Shown here piece by piece: positions 2,595-47,394 of a stretch of DNA of 64,000 bases. Each line of letters begins with the position of its first letter. Position 1 is the stretch's first letter. Below the pieces are notes generated by a model, which saw nothing but the letters and a program-made list of their open reading frames with translations, searched no databases and was not told the DNA's origin. Origin of the DNA: Candidatus Pacearchaeota archaeon. Lineage in GTDB: Archaea > Nanobdellota > Nanobdellia > Pacearchaeales > GW2011-AR1. The DNA lies in the NCBI GenBank assembly GCA_041659265.1, contig JBAZYP010000001.1, forward strand, positions 192,817-256,816. The letters run 5' to 3'. The position numbers were made by a program, and so were the translations under genes.

Positions 2595-3056
2595 ATGGAA
2601 AGCAGTTTATTAACATTAACTTTAGGAAATAAAAAATTGATTCTTCCTAGAAGTTGCAAATTATTAACAATTGGAAGAAGTGAGTTAGCTAATATTATTG
2701 TAAATCATCCTCAAGTTTCAAGATTTCATTGTTATATTAATTTTCAAGATGAAAAATGCAATGAAAATGAAATAGCATTATATGATGGAAGTTTATATAC
2801 TGGAAGCCCTAGTTTAAATGGAACTTTTGTTTCATCTGGGTATAAGGATAGATTTCAAATGATAGGTAGTCAAGAAGATAATCTCTCTAAAGGATATATT
2901 ATAGAACCTAATGCAAAAATTAGATTGGGAAGAGAAAATGCACCAGTATTAAAATTAGAATTTAAAGAAGAATCAGTAAATTCTTTAGTTGATTGGAGAC
3001 ATAAGCACAAGGAAGGATATATAAAGAGTTTATTCGGAGGTTTATTTAAAATATAA
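2595..3056 (+). CDS. Stand-alone FHA-domain protein 3
   Basis: 'LTIGRSELANIIV', 'QVSRFHCYI', 'PSLNGTFVS'. It starts 1 nt after the previous stop. Confidence 0.7.
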   Translation: MESSLLTLTLGNKKLILPRSCKLLTIGRSELANIIVNHPQVSRFHCYINFQDEKCNENEIALYDGSLYTGSPSLNGTFVSSGYKDRFQMIGSQEDNLSKGYIIEPNAKIRLGRENAPVLKLEFKEESVNSLVDWRHKHKEGYIKSLFGGLFKI

Positions 3057-43196: not shown

Positions 43197-43267
43197 TTAT
43201 TATTTTTAAAATTTATTTTAATTAGTAATCTTTAAAAGATTGATTATTATTCTATAAACATAAATTT

Positions 43268-43340
43268 AGCCCCATAGTATAGTGGTCAAGTATACGAGGT
43301 TCTGGACCTTGTGACCCAGGTTCGAATCCTGGTGGGGCTA
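43268..43340 (+). tRNA. tRNA-Gln (anticodon CUG)
   Basis: Hand-folded cloverleaf: acceptor AGCCCCA/TGGGGCT, D arm GTAT-AGTGGTCAA-GTAT, anticodon arm CGAGG-TTCTGGA-CCTTG, T arm CCAGG-TTCGAAT-CCTGG, discriminator A. No CCA is encoded. Confidence 0.85.
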
Positions 43341-43350
43341 TAAACAAATC

Positions 43351-45182: not shown

Positions 45183-45434
45183 ATGGAAGGGAAATTAATT
45201 GGTAGAGTCTTTAATTATTTTGAACATATTTCTGTAGCTGCTATAACTTTATCTGGACCATTAAAGTTAGGAGATACAATTCGAATTGTTGGAGGGGATA
45301 AAGATTTTACAGAAGTTATAGATAATATTCAAATTAATAAAGATAAAGTTAGTTCTGCGAAAGCTGGGGATAAAGTTGGTGTAAAAGTAAGCGAGAAAGT
45401 ATGTAGTGGATATAAGGTTTATAAAGTGGTTTAA
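45183..45434 (+). CDS. Small beta-barrel protein resembling EF-Tu domain 2
   Basis: 'GRVFNYFEHISVAAITLSGPLKLGDTIRIVG......AKAGDKVGVKV'. The call is from memory only. Confidence 0.4.
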   Translation: MEGKLIGRVFNYFEHISVAAITLSGPLKLGDTIRIVGGDKDFTEVIDNIQINKDKVSSAKAGDKVGVKVSEKVCSGYKVYKVV

Positions 45435-45722: not shown

Positions 45723-46256
45723 TTACTTTTTCTTTTCTTTTTGATATTGTCTTTGATAAAGAATATCTTTAAAGATAATTACTTTTTCACCAACTGAAGG
45801 TTTATGAAAGTCGAATTCAAAATTAAATAATTCTTTTAATCTTTTTTGTTGAGCATATATTTCTTGTAAATTTAATCTATCATAGAAATTATCCTTAGAA
45901 TATTTTGAATCATCTAAATCAAAAATTTCCCATAATTCTTTATATTCTTTTCTTTCTTCCTTTGATAATAGTTCATAAGATAAATCTTTTAATGCATTTA
46001 TTCCTGATGCTTTAATACTTAAATTAATTTTATCAAGAATATCATTACTTTCTTGCGCCTTTATCCATTCTTCATATGTAAAATATGTTGAATATATATC
46101 ATTTGATTCTTGTTTATTAAAATCATCTAAAATAAATTCTATTTTTTGTCTAGGAATATTTGGTTTATAGGAAGCTTGAACTGAATTTGGATCGGAAGTG
46201 TTTAATCCTAAAAGCCCAATTAATCCAAGTTTTGAAAAAATGTTTCTGTTTTTCAT
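45723..46256 (-). CDS. Hypothetical secreted protein
   Basis: An N-terminal hydrophobic signal followed by a charged, helical remainder. Confidence 0.4.
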   Translation of the reverse strand: MKNRNIFSKLGLIGLLGLNTSDPNSVQASYKPNIPRQKIEFILDDFNKQESNDIYSTYFTYEEWIKAQESNDILDKINLSIKASGINALKDLSYELLSKEERKEYKELWEIFDLDDSKYSKDNFYDRLNLQEIYAQQKRLKELFNFEFDFHKPSVGEKVIIFKDILYQRQYQKEKKK

Positions 46257-46362
46257 TAAAAATTTTAGAGTAAGTAATATATAATCTTAATTATCTCCTA
46301 ATAGAAGTTTTTATATGGGGTTTTTTTTAGTATAATATTGTACTATTTTATTGTACTAATTA

Positions 46363-46387
46363 GCCCCTGTAGTGTAGTGGCCAAGAA
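46363..46387 (+). pseudogene. Orphan tRNA 5' fragment (acceptor 5' strand plus D arm)
   Basis: GCCCCTGTAGTGTAGTGGCCAAGAA matches the first 24 nt of tRNA-Glu at 47321 at 20 positions, with 3 mismatches and 1 indel. No anticodon or T arm follows. Confidence 0.6.
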
Positions 46388-46390
46388 AAG

Positions 46391-46400
46391 ATTTAAATAA
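46391..46400 (+). promoter_or_regulatory. TATA-like box for the LAGLIDADG gene
   Basis: ATTTAAATAA lies 21-30 nt before the ATG at 46421. Confidence 0.4.
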
Positions 46401-46420
46401 TTCTTTAAGTAAGTAATTAA

Positions 46421-47335
46421 ATGAAAATTAAGTTAAAAAAAGGTAAACAAAGAGAATTAATTCTTTTAGCTAAAAATGATAAAAACTGGAAAGAATTTGC
46501 AAAGTTAGTTAATATTTCTGAAAAATATTTATGTAACGATTTAAAGAATGAAAAAATATTAATTTCAGAAATGCTATATTTGAATCTTTGTAAAATTTCA
46601 AATAAAAATTTTGATGAATTTATTATTGAAAGATTAGATAATAATTGGGGAAAATCAAAAGGAGGAAAAATCTCTAGAGGAAATACTAAAGATTTTAAAG
46701 AGCCAAAAGAGTCTTTAGAATTAGCTGAATTAATAGGAATAATTCTTGGCGATGGTCATGTTGAAAAATTAAAGATCGGTTCAAAAATAAGATGTTATTC
46801 CATTGTTGTTACTGGTGATTCTAGACATGATAAAAAGTATTTAATAAAATATGTTAATAATCTATTTAAAAAATTATTTAATGAAAATGGGAGAATTCTT
46901 TATTCTAAGGATAAAAATAGCATCTATATTAAATTACATGGTAAGAAAATTGTAGATTTTATAGAAAGTAAAGGTGTTTTTGGAGGTAATAAAAAAAGAA
47001 ATAATCAGGGTATACCTAAATGGATTCTTATAAATGATTCTTATTTAAAAGCAACTTTACGTGGTTTAATTGATACTGATGGATGTATATATTATATTTC
47101 TAAAAATAATAGAAATTTAAGAATATCGTTTACGAGTTATATTCCTAATTTAATGAATGATGTAAGAAATTCATTTTTAAAATTAGGTTTTAATCCTTCT
47201 GAAATTATAAGATGTAAAGATATAACCATTAGTAGAAAAGAAGATATTAAAAAATACTTGAAAGAAATCGGTTTTTCAAATGATAAACATTTAAAAAGAT
47301 ATCAAAATTTAGTTCAATATGCCCCTATCGTCTAG
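46421..47335 (+). CDS. Free-standing double-motif LAGLIDADG homing endonuclease
   Basis: Motifs 'LAELIGIILGDGHV' and 'LRGLIDTDGCIY'. The last four codons (APIV) and the TAG stop lie inside tRNA-Glu. Confidence 0.85.
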   Translation: MKIKLKKGKQRELILLAKNDKNWKEFAKLVNISEKYLCNDLKNEKILISEMLYLNLCKISNKNFDEFIIERLDNNWGKSKGGKISRGNTKDFKEPKESLELAELIGIILGDGHVEKLKIGSKIRCYSIVVTGDSRHDKKYLIKYVNNLFKKLFNENGRILYSKDKNSIYIKLHGKKIVDFIESKGVFGGNKKRNNQGIPKWILINDSYLKATLRGLIDTDGCIYYISKNNRNLRISFTSYIPNLMNDVRNSFLKLGFNPSEIIRCKDITISRKEDIKKYLKEIGFSNDKHLKRYQNLVQYAPIV

Positions 47336-47394
47336 CTGGCCAAGGATTTAGCCTTCTCAAGGCTGCGACCCGGGTTCGAATCCCGGTGGGGGCA
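47321..47394 (+). tRNA. tRNA-Glu (anticodon CUC)
   Basis: Hand fold: acceptor GCCCCTA/TGGGGGC, D stem GTCT/GGAT (two G-U pairs), anticodon arm TAGCC-TTCTCAA-GGCTG, T arm CCGGG-TTCGAAT-CCCGG, discriminator A. Confidence 0.85.

What the first reader, a model, noticed from the sequence alone, without database searches (positions are those of the whole stretch)
46363..47394. LAGLIDADG homing-endonuclease gene wedged between a duplicated tRNA 5' fragment and an intact tRNA-Glu that it overlaps
The fragment at 46363-46387 (GCCCCTGTAGTGTAGTGGCCAAGAA) matches the first 24 nt of tRNA-Glu(CUC) at 47321 (GCCCCTATCGTCTAGCTGGCCAAGGA) at 20 positions. It then breaks off into a TATA-like box and the ATG of a two-motif LAGLIDADG ORF. 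The ORF's last four codons and TAG stop lie within the acceptor and D arm of the intact tRNA. The tRNA has its own TATA-like TTTAAAAA at 47290-47297, inside the ORF. Homing endonucleases normally ride in introns or inteins. Here the ~935-bp cassette is bounded by two versions of the same tRNA 5' segment. Three readings are possible: a free-standing endonuclease cassette that invaded the D-loop region with target duplication, a giant non-canonical pre-tRNA intron, or an integration scar. The fragment's D-stem strand GTGT cannot pair with the downstream GGAT, which argues against simple splicing of the fragment onto the downstream body.
Basis: partly seen in the sequence, partly recalled or inferred. 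Interest (0 to 1): 0.7.

Follow-up and report, generated by a model that had tools for sequence, protein, structure and literature searches.

The report
Homing endonuclease carrying replacement tRNA gene
A selfish DNA-cutting enzyme gene sits fused to a working tRNA-Glu gene beside the stump of an older tRNA-Glu copy, a layout repeated in hundreds of tiny archaeal genomes that looks like a natural "cut the target and bring a spare" element.

Summary
Window 46363-46388 is the 5' stump of a tRNA-Glu gene. Its first 23 nt are identical to intact, endonuclease-free tRNA-Glu genes in public metagenomes. A TATA box follows, then a 304-aa two-motif LAGLIDADG ORF (46421-47335). The ORF's last 15 nt, TAG included, are nt 1-15 of an intact tRNA-Glu(CUC) (47321-47394).

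The layout is a family trait. At least 478 stretches in species-representative genomes encode a relative, mostly DPANN archaea plus a few CPR bacteria. In the 80 loci read, the ORF ends exactly 15 or 10 nt inside a tRNA-Gln/Glu gene in 45. A D-arm stump lies just upstream in 35 of 60 loci, against 1 and 0 of 60 in control windows. Stumps end after the D stem. They lack introns even where the linked tRNA has a D-loop intron.

In one relative (L082), an old tRNA-Glu is split into 5' and 3' stumps by an insert holding the endonuclease gene and a complete tRNA. Syntenic loci L093 and L095 are uninterrupted.

Best reading: a free-standing homing endonuclease that travels with a replacement, probably cleavage-resistant, tRNA copy. 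It is not a giant intron. Cleavage is untested. I found no published description.

The parts
46332..46339 (+). TATAATAT, a possible leftover promoter of the disrupted old tRNA-Glu copy (low confidence)
   Evidence: It lies 24-31 nt upstream of the first base of the stump. This is inference from position only, and the region is AT-rich, so a chance match is likely.
46363..46388 (+). 5' stump (relic) of an older tRNA-Glu gene: acceptor 5' strand, D stem 5' strand, D loop and a decayed D-stem 3' strand
   Evidence: Nt 1-23 are identical to intact, endonuclease-free tRNA-Glu genes such as L095 and L093 (GCCCCTGTAGTGTAGTGGCCAAGCAT...). These were found with a pattern predicted from the stump. Similarity to the resident tRNA 5' end was reached by 0 of 200 shuffles.
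46392..46399 (+). TATA box (TTTAAATA) for the endonuclease ORF; its spacing to the ATG suggests a leaderless mRNA
   Evidence: It starts 29 nt upstream of the ATG. A TATA-like box directly after the stump recurs in relatives. Function is inferred.
46421..47335 (+). 304-aa LAGLIDADG homing-endonuclease gene: an N-terminal helical domain followed by two LAGLIDADG domains
   Evidence: Pfam LAGLIDADG_3. Motif acidic residues: D220 is invariant, and D111 is conserved in at least 90% of 28 aligned homologues. AlphaFold model pLDDT 89.7. Foldseek top matches are intein endonuclease domains, I-Tsp061I and I-DmoI. It is the only family member in the window.
47290..47297 (+). TTTAAAAA, a likely TATA box of the resident tRNA-Glu, embedded in the ORF's conserved KHLKR coding stretch
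   Evidence: It lies 24-31 nt upstream of tRNA nt 1. The same AAACATTTAAAAAGA string is present in the close relatives L001, L081, L082 and L085. No sharp position signal appears across the whole family. Function is inferred.
47321..47394 (+). Resident, intact tRNA-Glu(CUC), the copy linked to the endonuclease gene
   Evidence: ARAGORN and Rfam. Its D arm (GTCT/AGCTGGCCAA/GGAT) differs from the stump and from the wild-type form (GTGT/AGTGGCCAA/GCAT) by a swap at pair 12:23 and an extra D-loop base.
47321..47335 (+). 15-nt overlap: the last four sense codons and TAG of the ORF are tRNA nt 1-15
   Evidence: The same 15-nt overlap occurs in 33 loci and a 10-nt overlap in 12 more. It is visible as the conserved C-terminal AP(I/V)V in homologues.

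Best explanation
This is a free-standing LAGLIDADG homing-endonuclease gene physically fused to a functional tRNA-Glu gene copy. The pair sits next to the 5' stump of the tRNA-Glu gene it displaced.

Proposed mechanism:
1. The enzyme cuts the common wild-type tRNA-Glu or tRNA-Gln gene near the boundary between the D arm and the anticodon stem (nt 25-31).
2. The break is repaired from an allele that already carries the element. This copies in the ORF's own promoter, the ORF, a tRNA promoter embedded in the ORF's 3' end, and a replacement tRNA sequence. That sequence is at least the first 25 nt, and in some lineages the whole gene.
3. The host therefore keeps a working tRNA.
4. The replacement copy differs from the target next to the cut site, by a D-stem pair swap, an extra D-loop base or a D-loop intron. 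It is therefore probably not cut again.
5. The old 5' end is left behind as a stump and decays.

Shown here: the anatomy, its conservation across hundreds of genomes, the existence of the predicted uninterrupted target tRNA, and one empty-versus-occupied site comparison.

Inferred: the cleavage itself, the immunity of the replacement copy, promoter use and ongoing mobility.
For: **Enzyme.** The ORF has the LAGLIDADG fold, and the acidic residues of its two motifs are conserved.

**Fusion to the tRNA.** The ORF stop lies exactly 15 nt (33 loci) or 10 nt (12 loci) inside a tRNA-Gln/Glu gene. At least 478 stretches in species-representative genomes encode a relative. The family comprises 516 clusters at 50% identity with E<=1e-30.

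**Upstream stump.**
- A D-arm stump lies 20-100 nt upstream of the start codon in 35 of 60 loci, against 1 of 60 and 0 of 60 control windows.
- Where its acceptor strand survives, the stump matches the linked tRNA: G1 for Glu, A1 for Gln.
- Stumps end after the D-stem 3' strand. They are intron-less even where the linked tRNA has a D-loop intron (L038 28/28, L046, L024, L035, L042).

**Predicted target exists.** A pattern built from the stump retrieved 69 intact tRNA-Glu/Gln genes. Of these, 61 have at least 400 nt of upstream sequence, and none has an endonuclease upstream. Two further hits were stumps followed by the ORF.

**Empty versus occupied site.** L093 and L095 share upstream genes with L082, L119 and L001 (75-84% nt identity) and carry an uninterrupted tRNA-Glu. 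L082 has old-gene nt 1-25, then an insert, then old-gene nt 32-73. The insert holds a decayed stump, a TATA box, the ORF, a complete tRNA and 14 nt of flank.

**Signs of mobility.** Degenerate ORF copies occur in L032, L033, L063 and L069. The family is linked to different tRNAs: Gln or Glu in archaea, and a different, bacterial-type tRNA in each CPR locus (anticodon loops read by eye as Ser in L073/L074 and Arg in L071/L080).

**Differences from the target.** All 15 linked tRNAs with the wild-type GTGT D stem are interrupted, 12 by a D-loop intron and 3 by an extra base. In the paired comparison, 0 of 11 intron-less residents are identical to their stump and 8 have a 1-nt indel. Of 13 intron-bearing residents, 4 are identical and none has an indel.
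Against: - No cleavage, expression or transfer was observed. Everything about the mechanism is comparative inference.
- The family is so widespread, and the local gene order among close relatives so conserved, that long vertical inheritance and some host function cannot be excluded.
- I found no endonuclease-free allele of the window's own species. The first metagenome scan returned nothing.
- The window has no 3' stump, so I cannot tell whether the whole tRNA or only its 5' part arrived with the ORF.
- The immunity argument is statistically weak (Mann-Whitney p=0.055, Fisher p=0.098, non-independent loci). Endonuclease-free Glu/Gln tRNAs also show varied D arms.
- The stump/TATA junction is shared by the window, L001, L081, L082 and L085, which implies an old event. 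The window's perfectly preserved acceptor strand then needs an extra assumption: refreshment by later recombination with an intact target.
Confidence: 0.7

Rival explanations
1. A domesticated LAGLIDADG protein. On this reading the gene is no longer mobile. It is inherited vertically in DPANN archaea as a host factor tied to the tRNA-Glu/Gln gene, for example as a DNA-binding regulator that uses the upstream D-arm-like stump as an operator. The stump would be kept by selection.
For: - The family is very broadly distributed.
- Neighbouring genes are conserved among relatives at 65% identity.
- The D-arm portion of the stump next to the TATA box persists after the acceptor portion has decayed.
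- WhiA, a domesticated LAGLIDADG transcription factor, is among the structural matches (rank 46).
Against: - The acidic residues of both motifs are retained. By my own knowledge (not tested here), domesticated relatives such as WhiA have lost them.
- Many loci have no stump at all (25 of 60 score below threshold).
- Pseudogenised copies exist.
- An empty and an occupied site are found in syntenic relatives, and double stumps occur.
- The family is linked to different tRNAs and occurs in both archaea and CPR bacteria.
Confidence: 0.15
2. A giant non-canonical pre-tRNA intron. On this reading the upstream fragment is a genuine 5' exon, spliced by the archaeal bulge-helix-bulge (BHB) endonuclease onto the downstream tRNA body. 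The ORF would be intron-encoded, like I-DmoI.
For: - In the window the fragment keeps a full acceptor strand that could pair with the 3' strand TGGGGGC.
- D-loop introns are common in the linked tRNAs of relatives.
- The structural neighbours include the archaeal intron-encoded enzymes I-DmoI and I-Tsp061I.
Against: - The downstream tRNA is complete on its own.
- The fragment's D-stem strand GTGT mismatches the downstream GGAT, and the fragment's own 3' strand has decayed.
- The hybrid molecule folds worse than the resident tRNA (-29.2 against -34.1 kcal/mol). Pairing between the junction regions is not above shuffles (p about 0.08) and rests on the palindromic GGCC of the D loop.
- Most relatives have lost the acceptor strand of the fragment.
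- The same layout occurs in CPR bacteria. Bacteria have no BHB splicing (my own knowledge, not tested here).
- In L082 a complete tRNA lies between the 5' and 3' stumps.
Confidence: 0.03
3. A scar of an integrase-type integrative element (pNOB8 or SSV type) or transposon that used the tRNA gene as its attachment site. The endonuclease gene would be a passenger.
For: The layout, a 5' tRNA fragment followed by an element gene next to the reconstituted tRNA on the same strand, mirrors pNOB8-type integration borders. It also mirrors the Caldiarchaeum tRNA-Thr case, in which the reconstituted tRNA had gained an intron at 24/25 (PMC3293823).
Against: - The segment between the stump and the tRNA is only about 0.93 kb and holds a single ORF, the LAGLIDADG gene.
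- That same minimal content recurs across the 80 loci examined.
- No integrase or recombinase domain was detected in the ORF.
- The repeats are not exact attachment-site copies (21 of 25 in the window).
Confidence: 0.03
4. A chance or unrelated decayed tRNA gene. On this reading the fragment is the remains of an independent neighbouring tRNA gene, and its position next to the endonuclease gene is coincidental.
For: tRNA 5' regions are generically similar to one another, and tandem tRNA genes such as Gln-Glu occur in relatives (L010).
Against: - The fragment recurs at the same distance from the ORF start in 35 of 60 loci, against at most 1 of 60 in control windows.
- It always ends at the same tRNA position, directly before the ORF's TATA box.
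- Its identity (Glu or Gln) follows that of the linked tRNA.
Confidence: 0.02

Closest known systems
Free-standing homing endonuclease genes of T-even phages, e.g. SegB in the T4 tRNA gene cluster (from my own knowledge, not checked here)
   Same: A nuclease gene lies outside any intron or intein, next to tRNA genes. It is thought to spread by cutting the endonuclease-free allele and being copied in during repair, along with flanking sequence.
   Different: - SegB is a GIY-YIG enzyme in a phage. This one is a LAGLIDADG enzyme in cellular genomes of DPANN archaea and CPR bacteria.
- Here the ORF is fused base-for-base to the tRNA, with its stop codon inside the tRNA.
- A stump of the displaced tRNA copy is left behind.
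Free-standing mitochondrial homing endonuclease genes that come with partial duplications of the neighbouring host gene (atp6, cox1, atp9 N-terminus) in fungi (PMC7487136)
   Same: The endonuclease gene is associated with a duplicated piece of the gene it sits in or beside. One copy stays functional and the other becomes a pseudogene fragment.
   Different: - The host gene here is a tRNA gene, not a protein gene.
- The duplicated part is the 5' end together with a promoter.
- The lineage is archaeal and bacterial, not organellar.
Integrative elements in archaeal tRNA genes, including the Caldiarchaeum tRNA-Thr locus (Sugahara et al. 2012, PMC3293823)
   Same: - A 5' tRNA fragment lies upstream, an element gene sits directly before a reconstituted tRNA on the same strand, and the junction is near nt 24/25.
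- The reconstituted tRNA can carry a new intron. Those authors proposed that such an intron protects against further invasion.
   Different: - Those elements use an integrase or recombinase and exact attachment-site repeats, and they carry more genes.
- Here the only gene is a LAGLIDADG endonuclease. The expected mechanism is therefore double-strand-break repair, not site-specific recombination.
Archaeal intron-encoded LAGLIDADG enzymes I-DmoI and I-Tsp061I (rRNA bulge-helix-bulge introns)
   Same: Closest solved folds besides intein endonuclease domains (TM-score normalised to target 0.75-0.77). All are monomeric two-domain LAGLIDADG enzymes from archaea.
   Different: - Sequence similarity is marginal (E about 0.01-0.03).
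- This protein has an extra N-terminal helical domain of about 95 aa.
- It is not inside an intron.
Synthetic cleave-and-rescue / home-and-rescue gene drives (from my own knowledge)
   Same: Same logic: a nuclease that destroys an essential gene is tightly linked to a recoded copy of that gene that the nuclease cannot cut.
   Different: Those are engineered Cas9 systems in insects. This would be a natural protein-only version acting on a tRNA gene. The resistance of the linked copy is inferred, not shown.

Membership tests
LAGLIDADG homing endonuclease (protein family) | Two LAGLIDADG motifs in one chain, or one motif in a homodimer | tested here: met
   Motifs LAELIGIILGDGH (about 101-113) and LRGLIDTDGC (about 213-222). 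Pfam LAGLIDADG_3 E=9.5e-13, with two matched stretches.
LAGLIDADG homing endonuclease (protein family) | Conserved acidic residue at the end of each motif (metal-binding, catalytic) | tested here: met
   D220 is invariant and D111 is conserved in at least 90% of 28 aligned homologues. One homologue (P0068) has G at the first site.
LAGLIDADG homing endonuclease (protein family) | Alpha-beta-beta-alpha-beta-beta-alpha fold, present twice | tested here: met
   AlphaFold model pLDDT 89.7. Foldseek probability 1.0 to PI-PfuI, I-Tsp061I and I-DmoI.
LAGLIDADG homing endonuclease (protein family) | Site-specific double-strand cleavage of a long DNA target | not testable with these tools
   Needs purified protein and the predicted target duplex.
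Free-standing homing endonuclease element | Not inside a self-splicing intron, BHB intron or intein | tested here: met
   Rfam finds no intron family anywhere in the window. No BHB-like pairing was detected. The ORF has its own start codon and TATA box.
Free-standing homing endonuclease element | Presence/absence polymorphism at the same genomic site in related genomes | tested here: met
   Met for relatives: L082/L119 are occupied, and L093/L095 are empty with shared flanking genes. Not met for the window's own species, where no empty allele was found.
Free-standing homing endonuclease element | The element-bearing allele is resistant to the enzyme | tested here: inconclusive
   Linked tRNAs differ from their stumps by a D-loop intron, a 1-nt D-loop insertion or a D-stem swap. 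The statistics are weak and no cleavage data exist.
Archaeal bulge-helix-bulge (BHB) intron carrying an endonuclease gene | BHB motif formed by the two exon-intron junctions | tested here: not met
   The best duplex between the junction regions is -11.0 kcal/mol, against a shuffle mean of -7.1 +/- 2.5 (7.6% of shuffles are as good). It is formed by the palindromic GGCC of the D loop.
Archaeal bulge-helix-bulge (BHB) intron carrying an endonuclease gene | The two exons together make one valid tRNA, and no complete copy lies inside the intron | tested here: not met
   A complete tRNA lies at the 3' end of the would-be intron. The fragment's D-stem strand mismatches the downstream partner, and relatives lack the acceptor strand.
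Integrase-type integrative element at a tRNA gene (pNOB8/SSV type) | Encodes a tyrosine or serine recombinase | tested here: not met
   The only ORF between the repeats is the LAGLIDADG gene. No recombinase domain was found in Pfam or NCBIfam.
Split or permuted tRNA gene | The tRNA pieces are needed to assemble the only functional copy | tested here: not met
   An intact tRNA-Glu(CUC) is present 0.93 kb downstream.

The most novel reading that the evidence does not exclude
A large, undescribed family of natural "cut-and-rescue" elements may exist. Each would be a LAGLIDADG nuclease welded to a recoded or intron-protected copy of the tRNA gene it attacks. The family would spread through DPANN archaea and into CPR bacteria. 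It would also be a main driver of both the tRNA gene fragments and the non-canonical D-loop introns seen in these genomes. That would be direct evidence for the old idea that tRNA introns protect genes against mobile elements.
Probability: 0.45. Interest if true: 0.85.

Novelty: new variant of a known kind. Interest (0 to 1): 0.74.

Why it matters
- It would explain why stray tRNA 5' and 3' fragments lie next to tRNA-Glu/Gln genes in hundreds of DPANN genomes.
- It would provide a concrete attacker for the long-standing hypothesis that archaeal tRNA introns and gene disruption are a defence against elements that target tRNA genes. Here the stump is intron-less, while the surviving copy often has an intron 3-4 nt from the junction.
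- It would be a natural counterpart of engineered cleave-and-rescue gene drives.
- It offers hundreds of compact meganucleases whose targets can be read directly from the stump plus the tRNA body, which makes the proposal cheap to test.
- For annotation, these ORFs and the intron-rich tRNAs behind them are currently labelled "hypothetical" or missed altogether. ARAGORN missed many of the linked tRNAs.

Tried and rejected
- **Metagenome scan with the 3' two-thirds of the window's tRNA-Glu**, aimed at endonuclease-free alleles of the same species: no hits.
- **Giant-intron / BHB reading:** junction duplex energy is not above shuffles, and the hybrid fragment-plus-body tRNA folds worse than the resident. 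Rejected.
- **Group I intron or other known RNA family around the ORF:** Rfam gave only the three tRNAs in the window.
- **Viral carriage of the family:** IMG/VR holds only distant LAGLIDADG relatives (34% identity or less, or 39% over a 90-residue piece; partial coverage). No evidence for a viral vector.
- **A sharply positioned tRNA TATA box inside the ORF across the whole family:** the position profile is uniformly A-rich with no clear peak. I keep the claim only for the window and its close relatives.
- **Statistical test of the immunity idea:** borderline (p=0.055 and 0.098). A small unselected sample of endonuclease-free Glu/Gln tRNAs already shows diverse D arms. Immunity stays an inference.
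- **MAFFT alignment of the occupied locus L082 with the empty loci:** it aligned the intact tRNAs to L082's resident copy, not to the stumps. The stump assignment rests on direct reading.
- **Sequence search of solved structures:** only marginal hits. The fold comparison was needed instead.
- **Literature searches** combining LAGLIDADG or homing endonuclease with tRNA, DPANN, Pacearchaeota or tRNA fragment: no description of this arrangement.
Full report
**1. What is in the window**

The region reads as the first-stage reader described.
- GCCCCTGTAGTGTAGTGGCCAAGAA occupies 46363-46387.
- TTTAAATA lies at 46392-46399.
- An ATG at 46421 opens a 304-aa ORF that ends with TAG at 47333-47335.
- TTTAAAAA lies inside the ORF at 47290-47297.
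- An intact tRNA-Glu(CUC) occupies 47321-47394 (ARAGORN; Rfam 52 bits).

The ORF's last 15 nt are tRNA nt 1-15, so the stop codon is the T13-A14-G15 of the tRNA. The ORF matches Pfam LAGLIDADG_3 (E=9.5e-13). The fragment matches the tRNA 5' end at 21 of 25 bases with one gap, a score reached by none of 200 shuffles. The window is about 23% G+C. The protein is 100% identical to an NCBI entry from a Candidatus Pacearchaeota genome.

**2. The protein**

An alignment of 28 homologues (A1) shows two LAGLIDADG motifs. The acidic residue of the second motif (D220) is invariant. That of the first (D111) is conserved in at least 90% of sequences.

An AlphaFold model built on this alignment is confident (pLDDT 89.7). 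It has an N-terminal helical domain of about 95 residues followed by two alpha-beta-beta-alpha-beta-beta-alpha domains. Foldseek against the PDB gives intein endonuclease domains, I-Tsp061I and I-DmoI as the best matches (TM-score normalised to target 0.75-0.77). Sequence-only comparison with solved structures is marginal. The protein therefore meets every computable criterion for a monomeric LAGLIDADG endonuclease. Its activity is untested.

**3. The layout is a family trait, not a local accident**

The word-indexed search returned 502 homologues, most about 300 aa long and 46-67% identical among the 120 listed. The exhaustive profile search found 516 clusters at 50% identity with E<=1e-30. 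In species-representative genomes, at least 478 stretches encode a relative. I read the best 80. They come from Pace-, Woese-, Nano-, Iain- and Aenigmatarchaeota, ARMAN-5 and a few CPR bacteria.

In these loci the ORF stop lies exactly 15 nt inside a tRNA gene in 33 cases and 10 nt inside in 12. The tRNA is Gln (CUG/UUG, 43 loci) or Glu (CUC/UUC, 29 loci). The conserved C-terminal AP(I/V)V of the proteins is simply the translation of the tRNA's first 12 nt. ARAGORN missed many of these tRNAs. About half carry an intron in the D loop, after GGYCAA, and others have further introns.

**4. The upstream fragment is also a family trait**

A D-arm-like sequence lies 20-100 nt upstream of the start codon in 35 of 60 loci, against 1 of 60 and 0 of 60 in two control windows.

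Where the acceptor strand survives, it matches the linked tRNA: G1 for Glu, A1 for Gln, with lineage-specific variants such as AGCCCTAT in L011 and L012. In many loci only the D-arm part remains. This is what a decaying remnant would look like.

The remnants end after the 3' strand of the D stem and run straight into the ORF's TATA box...AAGCAT|AAATTTATAAA...CAATCAT|TAAG...AAGGAT|AAATTTTTATAC. Where the linked tRNA has a D-loop intron, the remnant is the intron-less version (L038 28/28 identical to the spliced sequence; also L046, L024, L035, L042, L023). The junction is therefore at tRNA nt 25/26, give or take one, not in the D loop.

**5. The predicted intact target exists**

I combined the window's fragment with the better-preserved outer remnant of relative L082. 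This predicted a wild-type 5' region, GCCCCTGTAGTGTAGTGGCCAAGCAT.

In the 80 loci read there were 81 matches. Sixty-nine lie in tRNA genes that my simple finder could close: 23 Glu-like and 46 Gln-like, of which 62 are 73 nt long and intron-less. Sixty-one have at least 400 nt of upstream sequence. None has a family member in the 1.1 kb upstream. Two matches are remnants followed by the ORF (L119, L164). The other ten are mostly tRNAs with further introns or tRNAs cut off by a contig end.

The window's fragment is identical over its first 23 nt to these intact tRNA-Glu genes. L095, for example, also has the same acceptor 3' strand as the window.

**6. An empty and an occupied site**

L093 and L095 carry an uninterrupted tRNA-Glu(CUC). 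They share upstream genes (an RFC subunit and an 84-aa ORF) with L082, L119 and L001 at 75-84% nucleotide identity. In L082 the same position reads as follows:
- old tRNA nt 1-25;
- 11 nt of filler;
- a second, decayed D-arm remnant;
- a TATA box;
- the ORF;
- a complete tRNA-Glu;
- 14 nt of flank-like sequence;
- old tRNA nt 32-73, which I counted by eye as 38 of 41 identical to L095;
- the shared downstream flank.

L001 also has a 3' remnant. L016, L020, L021, L032 and L070 and L008 (read directly) have shorter repeats of the tRNA 3' end 60-100 nt downstream.

In at least some lineages, then, the inserted unit contains the endonuclease gene and a whole tRNA gene. The inner remnant next to the TATA box...TAGTGGCTAAG(T/A)AAA-N-TTTAAATA, is shared by the window, L001, L081, L082 and L085. 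It appears to travel with the unit. The window has no 3' remnant: only 61 AT-rich bases separate the tRNA from the next ORF.

**7. How it most likely works**

The simplest account is a free-standing homing endonuclease that targets the common form of the tRNA-Glu/Gln gene near nt 25-31. It is copied into the break together with a linked replacement tRNA sequence and the promoters needed to express both.

The replacement differs from the target close to the junction. In the window the differences are G12:C23 to C12:G23, an extra D-loop base (AGTGG to AGCTGG), and changes at positions 7, 9 and 26-28. Across loci, all 15 linked tRNAs that keep the wild-type GTGT D stem are interrupted, 12 by a D-loop intron and 3 by the extra base. 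In the paired comparison with remnants, 0 of 11 intron-less residents are identical and 8 have a 1-nt indel. Of 13 intron-bearing residents, 4 are identical and none has an indel.

I read this as immunity of the linked copy, but the tests are borderline, the loci are not independent, and endonuclease-free tRNAs also vary. Other observations fit a mobile element with a gain-decay cycle: degenerate ORFs (L032, L033, L063, L069), double remnants, perfect and decayed remnants side by side, and different tRNA partners in archaea and CPR bacteria.

The CPR loci L071, L073 and L074 encode CCA, and L074 has a bacterial-type terminator. By eye their anticodon loops read as Ser (L073/L074) and Arg (L071/L080). 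Bacteria lack bulge-helix-bulge (BHB) splicing (my own knowledge), which argues against any splicing-based role for the remnant.

**8. Rivals**

- *Domesticated regulator.* It cannot be excluded, given the breadth of the family and the local synteny. It fits poorly with the retained motif acidic residues, the pseudogenes, and the empty and occupied sites.
- *Giant intron.* Rejected. The downstream tRNA is complete, the junction regions do not pair above chance, most remnants lack an acceptor strand, and the layout exists in bacteria.
- *Integrase scar.* Rejected, because the insert holds only the LAGLIDADG gene.

**9. Comparison with what is known**

- The nearest precedent in archaea is the Caldiarchaeum tRNA-Thr locus. 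There a 5' tRNA fragment, a 1.8-kb element with a recombinase, and a reconstituted tRNA with a new intron at 24/25 were interpreted as integration of a mobile element, with the intron as protection (PMC3293823). The geometry is the same here but the enzyme class, and therefore the mechanism, is different.
- Free-standing mitochondrial endonuclease genes with partial duplications of atp6, cox1 or the atp9 N-terminus are a second analogue (PMC7487136).
- Phage free-standing endonucleases near tRNA genes and synthetic cleave-and-rescue drives are analogues from my own knowledge.
- Six literature searches found nothing linking LAGLIDADG genes to tRNA genes in DPANN or CPR organisms. The paper on archaeal group I introns concerns rRNA only.

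I rate this a new variant of a known kind.

**10. Verdict**

The finding is the local instance of a large, apparently undescribed family of endonuclease-plus-tRNA modules. Confidence in the mechanism is about 0.7, because cleavage, immunity and transfer are all inferred.

Noticed in passing
window 43267-43341: The window's tRNA-Gln(CUG) is endonuclease-free and has an uninterrupted D arm (TAGTATAGTGGTCAAGTAT). This is the kind of sequence seen in remnants next to the Gln-linked subfamily, so it is a potential target for that subfamily.
   Followed up: partly
L082-L084 about 2913-3000; L119 2575-2660: Two tandem remnants lie upstream of the ORF. The outer one is near-perfect in L082-L084 and perfect in L119, and ends at nt 25. 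It is followed by 11 nt of filler and an inner decayed D-arm remnant. This suggests capture of an already remnant-bearing unit by a broken intact tRNA gene.
   Followed up: partly
L020, L021, L032, L070 (60-100 nt downstream of the linked tRNA): Repeats of the last 15-18 nt of the tRNA (e.g. AATCCTGGTGGGGCTA; exact in L020, L032 and L070, one mismatch in L021) lie shortly downstream. They could be 3' remnants of the displaced gene or attachment-site repeats of some other small element.
   Followed up: no
L071, L073, L074, L080: Family members in CPR bacteria sit in the same way in front of bacterial-type tRNA genes. CCA is encoded in L071, L073 and L074, and L074 has a terminator hairpin. By eye their anticodon loops read as Ser (L073/L074) and Arg (L071/L080). 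Upstream 5' remnants are present in L071, L074 and L080. This implies transfer between domains and retargeting to other tRNAs.
   Followed up: partly
L004-L006; proteins P0052, P0065, P0068, P0095: Where the tRNA has CAG instead of TAG at nt 13-15, the ORF reads on through the tRNA. This gives C-terminal extensions such as APVVQRPR..., which are translated tRNA sequence.
   Followed up: no
L032, L033, L063, L069; protein P0068: Some copies are degenerate, with in-frame stops or frameshifts. One homologue has lost the acidic residue of the first motif (GGG instead of GDG).
   Followed up: no
L013 about 2930-2960: Directly upstream of the D-arm remnant lies AGCCCCGCCAGGATTCGAA. This is the reverse complement of a tRNA-Gln T-arm plus acceptor 3' end, i.e. 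an inverted 3' fragment.
   Followed up: no
L053, L062, L076/L078, L099, L154-L156: Many DPANN tRNA-Gln genes carry introns inside the T loop or T arm (e.g. GGTTCGAA|...|) in addition to D-loop and canonical introns. ARAGORN misses them.
   Followed up: no
window 45183-45434; L081 2221-2472; L082 2604-2858: An 83-84-aa ORF with faint similarity to EF-Tu domain 2 is the conserved upstream neighbour of the module. The window has extra minus-strand ORFs (including 45723-46256, 177 aa) between it and the remnant.
   Followed up: no
L092: One contig holds both an endonuclease-linked tRNA-Gln(CUG) with an altered D stem and, 1.4 kb away, an uninterrupted wild-type tRNA-Glu(CUC). The Gln-linked enzyme apparently does not attack the Glu gene despite the shared D arm.
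   Followed up: no
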